This document shows positions 13,151 through 45,424 of a stretch of DNA of 64,000 nucleotides, piece by piece (position 1 is the stretch's first letter; the number at the start of each line of letters is the position of its first letter). Made by a program: the position numbers and the translations under genes. The notes below the pieces were generated by a model that saw only the letters and a program-made list of their open reading frames with translations, did not search any database and was not told where the DNA came from. The DNA comes from Chloroflexota bacterium (GTDB lineage Bacteria; Chloroflexota; UBA11872; VXOZ01): NCBI GenBank assembly GCA_963662335.2, contig CAXXVD010000001.1, positions 544,001 to 608,000 on the forward strand, given 5' to 3'.

Positions 13151-13280
13151 GCCCTCGCGGCGAAGTCGCCGCCCTTCCGGCGCAAGTCCCGCCCTTCCGG
13201 CGAAGTTTCCGTCATTCCGGCGAAAGCCGGAATCCATCTTCGCCACGCATACCCTAGATTCCGGCTTTCGCCGGAATGAC
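13151..13280. repeat. 20-nt degenerate tandem array (13151-13210) running into a family-A REP doublet (13211-13280)
   Basis: Units GCCCTTCCGGCG.. at 13151, 13171 and 13191, then GTCATTCCGGCGAAAGCCGGAATCCA...GATTCCGGCTTTCGCCGGAATGAC. Confidence 0.85.
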
Positions 13281-13474
13281 GGAGGCGGAACTCTCCGTGC
13301 ATGGTATGCAGGTTTGCGTTCCCCGCATCTCTAATCGCGCTGGCGTCTTCATCGCAGTACCGTACAATATATCCCAAATCCGCGCCGCCTGAAATCCAAT
13401 TGCCGTACGGCCTCCGCGCGCATTCAGTGCGGCCTGGCGCTAACGGCCTCTTGCCGCTCCAGTCGCGCGGTCTC

Positions 13475-18577: not shown

Positions 18578-18763
18578 GATGCTCTACCCACTCCTTGCTT
18601 TGTGGGGGCCGGTCGTTGCTCTTTCGTGTAGATATAATTCAGCATTCTCCATTATAGGCAATTGCGGCGGTGAATCCCAATTGAGACCGCTGCTCAACCC
18701 CGCGATTGCTCTGAGGATGACTGCGCCAACTCCGTCATTGCAATGTAAATGGTGCGGCAGCCT

Positions 18764-18793
18764 CCGTCATTCCCGCAAACGCGGGAATGACGG
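18764..18793. repeat. Family-A REP, collapsed single hairpin
   Basis: CCGTCATTCCCGCAAACGCGGGAATGACGG between thyX and recA. Confidence 0.75.
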
Positions 18794-18902: not shown

Positions 18903-20456
18903 CTACCGCGGCATGGCGGTGTGCGGCAGCACTTCGGCGGTCCCGTCCTTGAAGGCGTCCCGGCCGCCGCACGCCACGCCCACGTGGGGGTGGACGCGCT
19001 GTACCGCAGACACGATGGCGTCGGAGACGTTGCGGATGTCCCACTGTGCGTGGCGGTCGCTGCGAATGCGCGACATCTCCACGATTTCGCGCGCGTTGAG
19101 GTCGGCCAGGATGCGGAGATTGTGCCCGTTGGCCAGCAGGATTTCGGCGCGCCGGCCGGCGCCAAGAGCCTGATAGGCTTCCTCAAGCGCGTCGAGCGCG
19201 CGCCGGTACTCGTCGGCGAAACCGGCGTTGCGCACGAGCGGCGGCAGGGTGCGCCCGTGGACGGGGCTGTGGGCCTGGGAGATGTCGGTCTTCATGCGGT
19301 GGCGGATGAATTGGTGATAGGCCGCTTCCGACATGACCAACTCGAACTGATAGTGCAGGAGTTCGAACTCGCGGAGCAGCGTGTCGTGGGCGTGCAAGCC
19401 CCGGTAGGCGGCGCGGATGATCTGGCCTACCTGATCATCGCCCAGGCGCGCCGCCGCCTGCTGCGCGGCGGTGTGCGTCATGCGGCTGGTGTGAAAGAGC
19501 AGGGCCGCGGCCAGGCGGCGCTCGCCGTCAGGGTCGTAGTGGACGAGGCGCACCGGGTCATCGGCGGCGGGCGGCTGCACAGCCGTGCTCTTGCTATTCT
19601 CTTGCGCTTCTGGATGGATTCCCGCTTTCGCGGGAATGACGGATGAATAGTCGGCTATGACGGATGTATCGGCGGGAATGGCGGAATCATCGGCGGGAGT
19701 GATGCCGAGCGCCGCCGCTGCCTCTTGCACCGCGTCCAGGCCGCTCTGTGGATACGGCAGCGCGCGGATGTACTTCTCCGGAAAGAGCGAGGGCGCGACC
19801 GGCTGGAGTTGGGCAAAGAGTTTCTCGCCGGTTTCGCGAAACTCCGGCAGCGGCGCGGAGAGCAGCCGCGTGACTATCAGGGCGAAGGCGCGGGCGTTCG
19901 TCGTCACCCCCACCTGGGTGGTCTGCGCCAGCGGCAGGACGTAGCGCGCGTCCTCGGTGGCGCGGCGCTCGGCGGAGGCGCGCCTCATGCGCGGGAATTT
20001 CTCCAGCAGATAGGCGGCGCAACCGGCGTAGATGGCGCGGTAGGCGGCGTGGCTTTGGCTCACCGCCTCCTCGAACACGCGCCGCGCCGTGCCGCGCCGG
20101 TAGGCTTTGGGCAAGTAGAACTGGCGGGGCACCTCTTCGAACGGGATGTAGCGCCCGCTGTGCTGGGTGTAGGCCGCCAGCCGGTGCCGTACGATCTCCA
20201 GCGAAAGCAGGCGGGGGATGTCCCAGACGGCGGCGCTGAAACAGCCGTGTTCCGCCACGCTGTTATGGCCGTATTCGTAGACGACCCGCCGGTTGCGCTG
20301 GCGCGCCAGGGCCGTATTGTCGCGGGCTTCCTTGATAAGTTGCGGCACGGGCGTGGGGTCGCGGCTGATGCGTGCCATGCCCGCCGTAATCGCCTCAGGA
20401 TTCTTTGCCGCCCGGCCGACGATCCGTACGCGGGGCGTGTATGACCACTTGACCAC
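18903..20456 (-). CDS. thyX: FAD-dependent thymidylate synthase with two tandem ThyX domains
   Basis: GHNSVAEH, RHRLAAYTQHS (RHRx7S), EDARYVLP; second domain RHRMKT...AQWDIR; start GTG 20456 uncertain. Confidence 0.88.
   Translation of the reverse strand: MVKWSYTPRVRIVGRAAKNPEAITAGMARISRDPTPVPQLIKEARDNTALARQRNRRVVYEYGHNSVAEHGCFSAAVWDIPRLLSLEIVRHRLAAYTQHSGRYIPFEEVPRQFYLPKAYRRGTARRVFEEAVSQSHAAYRAIYAGCAAYLLEKFPRMRRASAERRATEDARYVLPLAQTTQVGVTTNARAFALIVTRLLSAPLPEFRETGEKLFAQLQPVAPSLFPEKYIRALPYPQSGLDAVQEAAAALGITPADDSAIPADTSVIADYSSVIPAKAGIHPEAQENSKSTAVQPPAADDPVRLVHYDPDGERRLAAALLFHTSRMTHTAAQQAAARLGDDQVGQIIRAAYRGLHAHDTLLREFELLHYQFELVMSEAAYHQFIRHRMKTDISQAHSPVHGRTLPPLVRNAGFADEYRRALDALEEAYQALGAGRRAEILLANGHNLRILADLNAREIVEMSRIRSDRHAQWDIRNVSDAIVSAVQRVHPHVGVACGGRDAFKDGTAEVLPHTAMPR
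19615..19705. repeat. Family-A REP half plus 21-nt tandem array, in frame in the thyX inter-domain linker
   Basis: TGGATTCCCGCTTTCGCGGGAATGACGG, then GGGAATGACGG-like units at 19632, 19653, 19674 and 19695. Confidence 0.88.
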
Positions 20457-20555
20457 GGTGAGGTCTCTCGCTCTTTGCGCAATAGTGCCAGCTAACGGAC
20501 ACAAGAAGACCCCGGCGCTGGGATGAAGCAACAATCAGCGCGGGGCCTGAATCTC

Positions 20556-20825
20556 CTACTGCGACTCTTCCTGCTTGCTGACCTGCATGAAGTAGATGTC
20601 GAGTACACTCTCGATCCGGAAGACACGATCACTCAAGCGTTCGATGAGCCCTTCCATGTGAGAAACACGCTCGCCGAGACGAGATAAGCGCTCGCCGAGT
20701 TGGGAAATGCGCTCGCCCAAGCAGTGCTCAACGCCGGAGATGCAAGTCTCGCAAGCGCCAAAGCAACCCGGCAACCGCCACAATAGCCGCGCTAGCAGGC
20801 GCCCAGTCCCGTGATGTTCTTCCTA
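20556..20825 (-). pseudogene. Frameshifted paralog of the small TM/coiled-coil gene at 27987-28196
   Basis: DWAPASAAIVAVAGLLWR in one frame, then ETCIS..LGERVSHMEGLIERLSDRVFRIESVLDIYF in another; no intact start. Confidence 0.72.
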
Positions 20826-20932: not shown

Positions 20933-22279
20933 TTACGGAACCGGAGTTGGCGAAGCGGGCGCCGTCTCTGCCGTCGGAGTTGGCGAAGGAGTCGGTGTTT
21001 CGTCCGTCGGAGTTGGAGTGGCAGTCGGTACAGGTGTCGGCGTGGGCACGGGCCACACGACTACTTGGAGTTCTGACGGAGCGATATCTTCAACTTCCAC
21101 CTCGGGCGGCAGACTGACGCTCGGTTGCAGCGCATAAGCGCCCACGCCTACTCCGCTCAAGTCCAAGGAGACCATCACGTTGCCGGCTTGGAGCGTGCGC
21201 AGCACTGGCGCCGGCCCGCTGAGCGTGACCGCAACGGTAGCAGGAGTGATTTCAGCTCTCATTCCTGGCTGCAGATTTTTGTACGTCACAGCGACCTGAG
21301 TCTCAGCGCTCGCCACGATTGGCAAAATCTCTACGAGTACTCCAACCTGAGTGGCACTGGAGATGCCGACCCCAGGCGGTCTTCGTAGATCTGCTATTGT
21401 CGTAAACGTCCGCGTGGCTTCTGCGATGCTGATAGCCTCGGTAGACACAAAGCTCAGATTTTCAAGTTGCTCGGGTGGGCCGAATAGTGTTGCAATGGCG
21501 GGTCTCACAAGGTAGCGCGACACCCAATATCCTGGCGCCGGTTGTCCCACAATATTGATGCGGACGGGCACGTCTTTATAGGTTTCAATTTGCTCAACCG
21601 GCACCGTAACCTGTACCACGGGAGGATCGAGTTGCACGCCGCTCACGTCTTCACCTTGGGCATCACGCGGTATGGCCCGCTGCGTGAGGCTGACCGCACT
21701 CTGCGCGTTATCCACCTCTATCCGCAGCCAAGCCGCATCCACGAGATCCACTTTGGAGGCCGGCCCAATCACCTTCACGATGTCCGGCAGCAGTTCGGCC
21801 GGTTGAAAACCGTAGCCACGGGGTGGAGCGCCGACCAGTTCCACCCGCACCGGTACCTCTTTTTCCTTGCGTTGGTCCAGCGCTATGGTCACCGAATCCG
21901 GTTCAGCGGCAATGATGCGGATGCGGGAATCTGATCTCTCAGTATTGATGGGAAGCTCATGCAGACCGACACCGACCGCATAGAGATCCACCACCACGCG
22001 AAAGTCGTCCGCCTTCAGCGAGTCCCATATATCCCGCGGCGCGGCAATCCGCAAGCGCACCGTGCTGGGTGAGACGCGACTCAGCACTAATCCATCGCCC
22101 AAGCGGCTGGTCTCCACCGGGATATCCGCTTCGAAGAGGCCCTCTCGCTCCGGATTCCGTTCCGCTGTGAACACGACCCACAAGACGACCGATATCCCCA
22201 GAGCAAAGAGAAACCGCACGCCTAGGGTGTGCGTGAAGAAGCGGCCGAGGAGCAGTATGAGCGAACGAATTCTGTTCAT
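20933..22279 (-). CDS. cdaR: CdaR/YbbR-domain diadenylate cyclase regulator with PT-rich tail
   Basis: N-terminal TM helix, repeated YbbR-like modules (KEVPVRVELVGAPPRGY, KDVPVRINIVGQPAPGY); follows cdaA. Confidence 0.88.
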   Translation of the reverse strand: MNRIRSLILLLGRFFTHTLGVRFLFALGISVVLWVVFTAERNPEREGLFEADIPVETSRLGDGLVLSRVSPSTVRLRIAAPRDIWDSLKADDFRVVVDLYAVGVGLHELPINTERSDSRIRIIAAEPDSVTIALDQRKEKEVPVRVELVGAPPRGYGFQPAELLPDIVKVIGPASKVDLVDAAWLRIEVDNAQSAVSLTQRAIPRDAQGEDVSGVQLDPPVVQVTVPVEQIETYKDVPVRINIVGQPAPGYWVSRYLVRPAIATLFGPPEQLENLSFVSTEAISIAEATRTFTTIADLRRPPGVGISSATQVGVLVEILPIVASAETQVAVTYKNLQPGMRAEITPATVAVTLSGPAPVLRTLQAGNVMVSLDLSGVGVGAYALQPSVSLPPEVEVEDIAPSELQVVVWPVPTPTPVPTATPTPTDETPTPSPTPTAETAPASPTPVP

Positions 22280-39571: not shown

Positions 39572-39686
39572 GCGCTGCGGCTTTACTATTTGGCGGCTGT
39601 GTGCCGCCGGCTCCGGCTGCCGTCCAGTATAGCGCATGAGGCGCGCGCGACCAATGAGCGCCGCCGGCCGTCGAGCAACGCCATCT

Positions 39687-39850
39687 GTCATTCCCGCGAA
39701 AGCGGGAATCCGTATTCTCCCCGGTCGCCCTGGATTCCCGCTTTCGCGGGAATGACGGAAAATGTGCCCGGGAATGACAGAACATGTGCCCGGGAGTGAC
39801 GGATAATGCGCCCGGGAATGATAGAAAGTACGACCGGGAGTGACGGAAAG
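39687..39850. repeat. Family-A REP doublet (39687-39756) followed by a 22-nt tandem array
   Basis: GGGA(A/G)TGA units at 39748, 39770, 39792, 39814 and 39836. Confidence 0.88.
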
Positions 39851-39886
39851 TGCGCGACGCAGAGAAGTGCTACACTTAAAGGCACT

Positions 39887-45205: not shown

Positions 45206-45230
45206 ACCTGCGCCACTCTCCCGCACTCGC

Positions 45231-45382
45231 CCCTCTTCCGTTCGCCTCGCCCCTATTCCACTCGCCTTACCCTCTTCCGTTCGCCTTACCCATCTTCCGT
45301 TTGCCTCACCCCACTTCCGTTTGCCTTGCCCCTATTCCGCTCGCTTTGCCCCTCTTCCGTTCGCACTGAGCCTGTCGAAGGG
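45231..45382. repeat. 20-nt degenerate tandem array (7 units) running into a family-F element (45357-45382)
   Basis: TTCC(G/A) at 45236, 45256, 45275, 45295, 45315, 45335 and 45355, then CCGTTCGCACTGAGCCTGTCGAAGGG. Confidence 0.88.
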
Positions 45383-45424
45383 CGTCGCCCGGCGCACGCC
45401 GGCGGCAGACCGTTCCGGCATCAT

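What the first reader, a model, noticed from the sequence alone, without database searches (positions are those of the whole stretch)
19565..19710. thyX linker holds a REP half plus the only array with a 21-nt period
Seen: 7-aa repeats GITPADD SAIPADT SVIADYS SVIPAKA GIH between the two ThyX domains. The period is 21 here versus 20, 22 and 20 in the intergenic arrays. Inference: the array-forming process also acts inside genes and selection retains only frame-preserving periods, generating new peptide repeats.
Basis: partly seen in the sequence, partly recalled or inferred. Interest (0 to 1): 0.7.

Follow-up and report, generated by a model that had tools for sequence, protein, structure and literature searches.

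The report
In-frame REP repeat array in thyX
A small selfish DNA hairpin (a REP element) and 21-base tandem copies of its front half sit in frame in the floppy linker of the thymidylate synthase ThyX, adding about 26 harmless residues; this is a clear, still-changing example of a phenomenon already known in other bacteria.

Summary
Window 19614-19706 (minus strand) encodes GITPADDSAIPADTSVIADYSSVIPAKAGIH between the two Thy1 domains of a tandem ThyX. It has a 21-nt period (TRF; lag-21 identity 0.62; 0 of 5000 shuffles reach it). It holds a complete CGTC-tagged REP hairpin (19615-19641), not just a fragment, plus three degenerate copies of the REP's tag-side half.

The insert is lineage-specific. 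The linker is exactly 40 aa in 15 of 17 genus genomes, 66 aa here and 82 aa (six half-units) in the sister species. Contigs from four public runs carry an exact extra 42 nt (two units).

Genome-wide I found 41 such arrays with periods of 14-38 nt. In 39 of them, half-units lead into one complete REP. Of the 39 intergenic arrays, 10 have periods divisible by three. Both genic arrays do (21 and 30), as does a probable enolase N-terminal array in relatives (21).

In-frame REPs are already documented (Di Nocera 2013; Rickettsia RPEs). The one-sided half-REP array layout was not in the papers I read. Interest is moderate.

The parts
18903..20456 (-). thyX coding sequence for a tandem (two-domain) ThyX. 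The probable GTG start is at 20454-20456; the longest ORF runs from TTG at 20534.
   Evidence: ORF. Pfam Thy1 PF02511 with two stretches, E 1.2e-51. The conserved N-terminus of 17 genus orthologs begins at V-V-K-W-S-Y. thyA (PF00303) was not found in the 96%-complete genome.
19554..19751 (-). Inter-domain linker, from PQSG to VRLV. It is 66 aa here and 40 aa in 15 of 17 genus genomes.
   Evidence: for linker lengths. AlphaFold2 gives pLDDT below 50 for residues 255-295 of the 515-aa form, but the model is mediocre overall (mean pLDDT 65.6).
19615..19641 (-). Complete CGTC-1-type REP: CGTC tag, 8-bp stem ATTCCCGC, loop GAAA, second stem arm, CCA tail. In frame it encodes part of SVIPAKAGIH.
   Evidence: Exact pattern match, where 13 window matches compare with 0.82 expected. 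Hairpin fold -13.6 kcal/mol. Family features.
19643..19663 (-). Half-REP unit h3, next to the REP (core 19651-19663, 10 of 13 identical to the REP 5' half). Encodes part of SVIADYS.
19664..19684 (-). Half-REP unit h2 (core 19672-19684, 12 of 13 identical to the REP 5' half). Encodes part of SAIPADT.
19685..19706 (-). Half-REP unit h1, the most distal (core 19693-19705, 10 of 13). Encodes GITPADD and may overlap the ancestral G-I-x of the linker.
19630..19671 (-). The 42-nt segment (two units) that is present twice, in tandem, in contigs of four public runs.
   Evidence: table 5 (joint 19671 to 19630, 'goes back 42') and table 8 (records 6, 12, 17 and 25; 0 other letters in X1 and on the duplicated piece in X3).
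39688..39855 (.). Intergenic comparator: an inverted REP pair followed by five 22-nt half-REP units on the tag side.
   Evidence: Absent from the orthologous site of sister species G011.
13158..13285 (.). Intergenic comparator: 20-nt half-REP units leading into an inverted pair of the ATTCCGGC REP variant.
18763..18793 (.). A REP hairpin tagged on both sides, about 110 nt downstream of the thyX stop codon.

Best explanation
A CGTC-tagged REP, a small non-autonomous palindromic repeat with about 210-230 copies in this genome, inserted in frame into the disordered, sequence-variable linker between the two ThyX domains. This happened in the common ancestor of this species and its sister.

Next to the REP, a 21-nt segment covering its tag and left stem arm was tandemly duplicated. 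The same one-sided process has built about 40 arrays elsewhere in the genome, always as half-units leading into one complete REP.

No thyA was found in this genome, so ThyX appears to be its only thymidylate synthase. Only duplications of 3n nucleotides without stop codons can therefore persist in this gene. Copy number has since drifted: 3 half-units here, 6 in the sister species, and 5 in contigs of public runs. Older units have decayed by point mutation.

The product is 26-42 extra Pro/Ala/Ser/Ile-rich residues of linker with no evident function.

Shown here: REP identity, lineage-specific presence, copy-number differences, the one-sided array layout, and 3n periods in all genic cases. Inferred: the order of events, selection as the filter, neutrality of the peptide, and the duplication mechanism. 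I suspect hairpin-associated slippage or a tag-side nick, but did not show either.
For: **REP identity.** The element has the CGTC tag, an 8-bp stem starting with AT, a 4-nt loop and a CCA tail. The genome holds 220-234 such hairpins. Of 208 tagged copies, 176 have the CCA tail. They form 44 tags-outside inverted pairs, 0 tags-inside pairs and 4 head-to-tail pairs. This matches the CGTC-1 description in Di Nocera 2013.

**Insertion.** The linker is 40 aa in 15 of 17 genus genomes, 66 aa in G000 and 82 aa in G011. G000 and G011 are sisters in the ThyX tree (support 100/99). Both carry the REP in the same phase, followed by ...GGAATCCATCC.

**In-situ change.** G011 units 4-7 are 14-18 of 21 identical to each other and 11-14 of 21 to the G000 half-units. 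Contigs of 4 runs carry an exact 42-nt duplication.

**Same process as intergenic arrays.** Of 41 arrays, 39 end in a complete REP, while only 4 of 118 inner units are complete. thyX has the same layout.

**Frame filter.** Genic periods are 21 and 30, while 10 of 39 intergenic arrays have 3n periods. The enolase-upstream array has period 21 in 6 genomes by TRF, at 1.9-6.6 copies.

**Tolerance of linkers.** REPs also sit in frame in the inter-domain linkers of a PmoA-like gene and an ABC transporter. The ThyX linker has pLDDT below 50.

**Sole thymidylate synthase.** PF00303 (thyA) was not found.
Against: The statistics rest on 2-3 genic loci (hand-computed Fisher P of 0.08 and 0.025), and related genomes are not independent.

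The G000 half-units are no more similar to each other (10-13 of 21) than to G011 units (8-14 of 21). So growth within the G000 lineage is not shown by unit similarity. It rests on the 42-nt duplication, and that comes from contigs of a single study (at most 3 samples), which may include the sample the window was assembled from. A collapsed repeat in the assembly therefore cannot be excluded.

The length difference between the two species' inserts is 48 nt, which is not a multiple of 21, so other indels also occurred.

No enzyme is known for CGTC REPs. The one IS200-like (RAYT-like) gene in the genome is flanked by a different REP family. Array orientation shows no link to the sign of local GC skew (12/11/9/9), so the mechanism remains open.

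Gene calls were my own codon-usage heuristic, not a gene finder.
Confidence: 0.8

Rival explanations
1. The REP and a ready-made 21-nt array arrived together as one block. No array formation happens inside genes; differences between species come from later deletions.
For: Intergenic arrays with 3n periods exist (10 of 39). They include 21-nt arrays whose units begin like the thyX unit (C2:692111; the enolase-upstream unit). A pre-formed 21-nt block could therefore have landed in frame.
Against: The spacer parts of the units differ between thyX and those arrays. The exact 42-nt duplication in run contigs is a gain at this site. G011 units share lineage-specific spacers. The orthologous intergenic array at window 39747 is absent in the sister species, so arrays arise or vanish locally.
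Confidence: 0.12
2. The heptad repeat is a native, selected linker feature that tunes domain spacing or provides a binding site, and its likeness to a REP is secondary.
For: The peptide is Pro/Ala-rich, as natural linkers are. G011 keeps an even longer version.
Against: It is absent from 15 of 17 genus genomes, whose linker length is fixed at 40 aa. The DNA contains an exact copy of a roughly 220-copy genomic palindrome. The unit cores match the REP 5' half at the DNA level. The same REP peptide appears in unrelated genes.
Confidence: 0.04
3. The element acts at the RNA or DNA level inside thyX, for example as a GNRA-capped hairpin that slows translation between the two domains or protects the mRNA. 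It is retained for that reason.
For: The RNA hairpin is stable (-13.6 kcal/mol, 0 of 200 shuffles fold as well). Di Nocera 2013 discusses roles of REPs as RNA elements (section 15 read).
Against: Most relatives lack it. The same hairpin is scattered at about 220 sites regardless of context. No expression data were available.
Confidence: 0.04

Closest known systems
Intragenic CGTC- and GTAG-tagged REPs (Di Nocera, De Gregorio, Rocco 2013, BMC Genomics 14:522, PMC3733652; passages and section 15 read)
   Same: The REP anatomy matches the CGTC-1 family: CGTC tag, 8-bp stem starting with AT, 4-nt loop, CCA tail, mostly tags-outside pairs, and no flanking transposase. The paper reports REPs lying entirely within ORFs, singly, as pairs or as clusters encoding up to 43-82 aa.
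   Different: Here the array is made of 5' half-REPs (tag plus left arm) with a fixed 21-nt period leading into one complete REP, not of whole REPs or pairs. The paper calls clusters of CGTC elements rare, and the words 'half', 'truncated' and 'slippage' do not occur in it. The host is Chloroflexota; I did not check which five phyla the paper names for CGTC repeats.
Rickettsia palindromic elements (RPE) inserted in frame in protein genes (Ogata et al. 2000, recalled; cited in PMC3733652, which equates RPE-6 and RPE-4 with CGTC-1 and CGTC-4)
   Same: A selfish palindromic repeat tolerated in frame within genes that likely encode functional proteins, adding a peptide segment.
   Different: As recalled, RPE insertions are single elements of fixed length. 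Here a short tandem array varies in copy number between sister species and between the assembly and public runs.
Tandem REP and REPIN clusters of Pseudomonas fluorescens SBW25 (Bertels and Rainey 2011, PMC3116915; passages read)
   Same: REPs occur in ordered tandem arrays that need a second formation mechanism besides transposition.
   Different: Those units are whole REPs or REPINs with their flanks, with REP spacings of 72 and 112 bp (a 184-bp next-neighbour peak), in extragenic space and belonging to RAYT-associated GTAG-type families. Here the units are 14-38 nt half-REPs.
Neisseria dRS3 repeats (classed as CGTC-1 in PMC3733652)
   Same: Same ATTCCC-N8-GGGAAT hairpin core and the same superfamily. 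They are found in large clusters.
   Different: As I recall, not checked here, those clusters are mosaics of other repeat units bracketed by dRS3, not tandem half-hairpins. They are not reported as in-frame peptide repeats in the text I read.

Membership tests
CGTC-1 REP family (Di Nocera 2013) | CGTC tetranucleotide tag at one end, not base-paired | tested here: met
   The thyX copy reads CGTC directly 5' of the stem on the coding strand. 208 genomic copies carry the [CT]GTC tag.
CGTC-1 REP family (Di Nocera 2013) | 8-bp stem with A-T in the first two positions and a 4-nt loop | tested here: met
   ATTCCCGC / GAAA / GCGGGAAT, with perfect pairing. Loop variants are listed.
CGTC-1 REP family (Di Nocera 2013) | Short unpaired tail, consensus CCA | tested here: met
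   176 of 208 tagged copies end in CCA, the thyX copy included.
CGTC-1 REP family (Di Nocera 2013) | Mostly tags-outside (HH) pairs; tags-inside pairs rare; head-to-tail pairs negligible | tested here: met
   44 HH pairs, 0 TT and 4 HT among 208 copies.
CGTC-1 REP family (Di Nocera 2013) | No dedicated flanking tyrosine transposase | tested here: met
   The single PF01797 hit (45.2 bits) has no CGTC-type hairpin within 3.2 kb. Its flanks translate to motifs of a different G/C-rich repeat.
ThyX (Thy1, PF02511), tandem two-domain form | Two Thy1 domains in one polypeptide | tested here: met
   Two matched stretches, 175.6 bits. Two-domain relatives at 30-35% identity occur in Syntrophales and other groups.
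ThyX (Thy1, PF02511), tandem two-domain form | Flavin-dependent thymidylate synthase activity | not testable with these tools
   Only sequence evidence is available. An RHR motif is visible in both domains in the ORF.
REPIN / RAYT system (Bertels and Rainey 2011) | REP family flanks its own single-copy RAYT gene | tested here: not met
   The RAYT-like gene is not flanked by this REP family.

The most novel reading that the evidence does not exclude
CGTC-type hairpin repeats may undergo a previously undescribed, strictly one-sided tandem duplication. Copies of the tag plus left arm, with array-specific periods of 14-38 nt, pile up on the tag side of one intact hairpin. This layout holds in 39 of 41 arrays here and such arrays occur in 17 of 301 sampled Chloroflexota genomes. 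The asymmetry would point to a site-specific nick or stall at the tag by an unknown factor. Inside genes the same process, filtered to 3n periods, would act as a generator of variable heptad or decapeptide linkers and N-terminal extensions in ThyX, a PmoA-like protein and enolase.
Probability: 0.3. Interest if true: 0.6.

Novelty: new variant of a known kind. Interest (0 to 1): 0.38.

Why it matters
This locus shows, with outgroups that date it, how a selfish intergenic hairpin repeat can enter a gene for what is apparently the genome's only thymidylate synthase and keep growing there as a frame-compatible tandem repeat. The result is new, variable peptide sequence in a linker. The wider pattern of one-sided half-REP arrays offers a handle on how CGTC REPs, which have no known transposase, change and spread. 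In-frame REPs themselves are already documented, so the thyX case on its own is a good example rather than a discovery.

Tried and rejected
- **Replication-strand bias.** Array orientation against the sign of local GC skew gave 12/11/9/9. There is no signal, and the skew itself is noisy in this five-contig assembly.
- **A RAYT for this REP.** The only PF01797 hit is not flanked by CGTC REPs.
- **Exact-core pattern search for arrays in relatives**. It works for young intergenic arrays but would miss both degenerate genic arrays of G000, so I did not use it for period statistics.
- **Peptide search with the G011 linker**. It finds many 21- and 24-nt arrays, but it is biased towards open 3n arrays by construction, so I did not use it for statistics. 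It did lead to the enolase locus.
- **glyA-upstream 18-nt array** (L021). It is in frame and open, but lies about 90 codons upstream of the conserved SHMT N-terminus, so I counted it as intergenic.
- **AlphaFold2 of ThyX**. The model is mediocre (mean pLDDT 65.6), so I used it only for the low-confidence linker. I did not run a fold search.
- **Earlier notes of this scan.** Nothing for this genome or this sequence.
- **Expression.** No RNA holder is listed among the public runs.
- **Coverage in the laid runs.** No single contig spans the whole 701-nt stretch, and contigs break at the REP.
- **Literature.** Three lexical searches and passages of two REP papers gave no description of half-REP arrays. 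That is not proof that none exists. I did not open the supplements of PMC3733652, whose Additional file 3 lists intragenic REPs.

Full report
**What is at the coordinates.** The minus-strand ORF 18903..20534 is a ThyX with two Thy1 domains (PF02511, two stretches, E 1.2e-51). The conserved N-terminus of 17 genus orthologs suggests a GTG start at 20454-20456. Between the domains the ORF reads GITPADDSAIPADTSVIADYSSVIPAKAGIH, encoded by 19614-19706. TRF reports 19630-19702 with period 21, 3.5 copies and 73% matches. Identity at lag 21 is 0.62, against 0.40 or less at all other lags from 15 to 30, and 0 of 5000 shuffles reach 0.62 at any lag.

**What the repeat is made of.** On the coding strand the last unit is CGTCATTCCCGCGAAAGCGGGAATCCA (19615-19641). 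This is a perfect 8-bp hairpin with a GAAA loop (pattern match with 0 mismatches; RNA fold -13.6 kcal/mol, 0 of 200 shuffles as stable).
- The genome, laid as G000 (3.23 Mb, 5 contigs, 64.5% G+C), holds 220-234 such hairpins.
- Of 208 copies with the tag, 176 end in CCA.
- They form 44 tags-outside inverted pairs, 0 tags-inside pairs and 4 head-to-tail pairs.
- All 17 genomes of the genus carry the family, with 22-130 exact-type copies each, and the reversed-pattern control gives 0.

This is the anatomy of the CGTC-1 family of Di Nocera et al. 2013 (PMC3733652; passages and section 15 read). That family has a CGTC tag, an 8-bp stem starting with AT, a 4-nt loop, a CCA tail, mostly HH dimers and no dedicated transposase. 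Consistent with the last point, the only IS200-like gene of G000 (PF01797, 45.2 bits) has no CGTC hairpin nearby and is flanked by another G/C-rich repeat.

Upstream of the complete REP, in gene direction, lie three degenerate copies of its tag plus left arm. Their cores are at 19651, 19672 and 19693, exactly 21 nt apart, and are 10, 12 and 10 of 13 identical to the REP 5' half (read). So the 'REP half' of the finding is a whole singleton REP, and the array consists of half-REPs.

**The insert is lineage-specific.** ThyX orthologs were found in all 16 other genomes of the genus. From PQSG to VRLV the linker is exactly 40 aa in 15 genomes, although its sequence is highly variable. It is 66 aa in G000 and 82 aa in G011. 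G011 reads GVIPANTPNPPDSPSDTPTDPAVNPANPTVIPAHTAVNPANSAVIPAKAGIH, which is six 21-nt units plus the same REP in the same phase. G000 and G011 are sisters in a ThyX tree built without the linker (support 100/99). One insertion in their common ancestor, followed by divergence in copy number, is the simplest history. The record titles of relatives place the genus in uncultured Chloroflexota.

**Is the array still changing inside the gene?** G011 units 4-7 resemble each other (14-18 of 21) more than they resemble the G000 half-units (11-14 of 21). The G000 half-units are as diverged from each other (10-13 of 21) as from G011 units (8-14 of 21), so unit similarity alone is weak evidence for G000.

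More direct evidence comes from public runs. In each of four runs (one study, at most three samples) a contig of 1761-1762 nt carries 19617-19671 followed directly by 19630-20000. This is an exact 42-nt, two-unit, in-frame tandem duplication relative to the window. X1 has 0 other letters on both pieces, and X3 has 0 on the 54-nt duplicated piece and 1 on the 371-nt piece. Depths are like those of neighbouring contigs. These runs may include the sample the window came from. The result is therefore either a copy-number polymorphism or a repeat collapsed in the assembly. In both cases an exact 42-nt duplicate inside the gene marks a recent in-situ duplication.

**Genome-wide comparison.** Using TRF, a core filter (GTCATTCC with at most 1 mismatch, at least 2.5 copies, period 14-45) and a codon-usage test of both flanks, I found 41 arrays in G000.
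- 39 are intergenic, with periods of 14-38 nt. Ten of these periods are divisible by three.
- Two are genic: thyX (21 nt) and a PmoA-like gene at C1:429876-429975 (30 nt, whole REPs).
- A one-sided Fisher test done by hand gives P = 0.08.

The layout is strikingly uniform. In 39 of 41 arrays the unit at the 3' end, in REP orientation, continues into a complete REP, whereas only 4 of 118 inner units are complete. The arrays therefore always lie on the tag side. thyX follows the same layout. Several REP variants that share the GTCATTCC core behave alike. The 20-nt array at window 45226-45364, from an unrelated repeat family, also runs into a longer terminal element (by eye).

Arrays with at least three exact cores occur in 17 of 301 sampled Chloroflexota genomes (11 of 171 genera), with 0 matches to the reversed control pattern. 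The orthologous site of the window's 22-nt array is only 106 nt in sister G011 and holds a different repeat, so arrays come and go quickly.

**Other genic cases.** Of 234 hairpins, 4 lie in frame with strong coding signal on both sides: thyX, the PmoA-like gene, a fused ABC transporter and a large membrane protein.
- **PmoA-like gene.** Of 14 orthologs I could read (from 17 loci), 9 including G000 carry a REP-like peptide at the same inter-domain site, 4 carry none and 1 is ambiguous. Only G000 has three tandem copies.
- **ABC transporter.** The linker between the membrane and ATPase domains holds a single REP in G000, G011 and G016, and none in the other 14 genomes.
- **Enolase.** A peptide search led to this locus. 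In 15 of 16 genus genomes read, a REP (MDSRFRGNDG-type) and up to about 6 seven-residue units of 21 nt lie upstream of, and in frame with, enolase, open back to an ATG. TRF gives period 21 in six genomes at 1.9-6.6 copies. G000 has lost this array and starts at a new ATG. Many genomes have a GTG three codons before the conserved REVLDSRG, so translation of the array is probable, because conserved residues lie upstream of that GTG, but not certain. Counting this as a third genic locus gives a hand-computed P of 0.025, with the caveat that the loci were not sampled blindly.

**Mechanism.** What is shown is the end state and its polarity. Units consist of a few flank bases plus the tag and a variable part of the left arm and loop. 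The sequence before the first unit resembles the spacers (window 39747 array). This is what repeated tandem duplication of a segment straddling the REP's tag-side boundary would give. Why only that side is affected is unknown. I found no association with GC-skew sign and no candidate enzyme. Within genes, the 3n restriction follows if non-3n duplications frameshift the gene. thyX appears to be the only thymidylate synthase, since PF00303 was not found in a 96%-complete genome. Genes hold only 2 of the 41 arrays, so most genic insertions are presumably lost whatever their period. The survivors all sit in inter-domain linkers or at termini. The ThyX linker is predicted with pLDDT below 50 (residues 255-295), in a model of only moderate quality.

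**Comparison with what is known.** In-frame REPs, including pairs and clusters encoding up to 82 aa, are described for both REP superfamilies (Di Nocera 2013, section 15). Rickettsia RPEs are the classic case (cited there; Ogata 2000 is recalled, not read). Earlier reports of this scan also filed in-frame REP arrays in other genomes as a known kind. Tandem REP and REPIN clusters in Pseudomonas consist of whole elements with much longer spacings (Bertels and Rainey 2011). I found no description of tag-side half-REP arrays in the texts I read or in three lexical searches. That is a limited search, and I did not open the supplements of PMC3733652.

**Verdict.** The thyX case is a clean, datable and probably still polymorphic example of a known phenomenon. 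The one-sided half-REP array layout is the part that may be new.

Noticed in passing
L209-L223 (enolase loci of 15 genus genomes); G000:C2:371400-371750: A REP (MDSRFRGNDG-type) plus 0-6 seven-residue units of 21 nt lie in frame upstream of enolase, open back to an ATG, in 15 of 16 genomes read. Copy number differs between species. G000 has lost the REP and starts at an ATG inside a decayed unit. This is probably a variable N-terminal extension of enolase.
   Followed up: partly
G000:C1:429876-429975 (L022 877-976; L134): Three tandem whole REPs (30-nt period) lie in frame between the N-terminal and PmoA-like domains of a 428-aa protein. Orthologs carry one decayed REP, a short remnant or nothing at the same site.
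   Followed up: partly
G000:C1:306983-307000 (L154/L156): A single REP lies in frame in the membrane-domain to ATPase-domain linker of a fused ABC transporter. It is shared with sister G011 and is also present at nearly the same site in the non-sister G016, which suggests a recurrent landing spot.
   Followed up: partly
G000:C1:494165-494182 (L155): A REP-like hairpin lies in frame (PPSFPRTREAIR) in a loop of a large membrane protein. Orthologs were not compared.
   Followed up: no
L103 (G000:C2:167303-170566) and G000:C3:95105-95295: A second G/C-rich REP family (translated as GGQAPAL / GDKPPRYG) flanks the only IS200-like (RAYT-like) gene. It also forms a 49-nt array of 3.9 copies at 97% identity. 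The sister genome has a GTAG-tagged copy at the site where G000 has the CGTC array.
   Followed up: partly
window 45226-45400: Seven 20-nt units of a different repeat family run into a longer terminal element (...ACTGAGCCTGTCGAAGGGC). This is the same 'half-units then full element' layout as the CGTC arrays.
   Followed up: no
window 20556-20783 (minus strand) and 20942-21016: An unrelated 21-nt repeat (2.8 copies) lies inside a 75-aa ORF with heptad-like ERxSxLG units. A 33-nt repeat overlaps the Pro/Thr-rich C-terminal end of the ORF at 20933-22279.
   Followed up: no
window 39660-39875 and L174-L190: The intergenic space here is 63 to 432 nt long in 16 genus genomes (one was not resolved) and holds different repeat families in different species. 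It is a hot spot for repeat turnover.
   Followed up: partly
L021 (G000:C1:480917-480985): An 18-nt half-REP array (3.8 copies) plus an inverted REP lie upstream of glyA, open and in frame with it for 559 codons, but probably in the 5' untranslated region.
   Followed up: partly
window 18763-18793: A REP carrying the GTCATT...AATGAC tag on both sides lies about 110 nt downstream of the thyX stop. Seven such doubly tagged hairpins exist in the genome.
   Followed up: no
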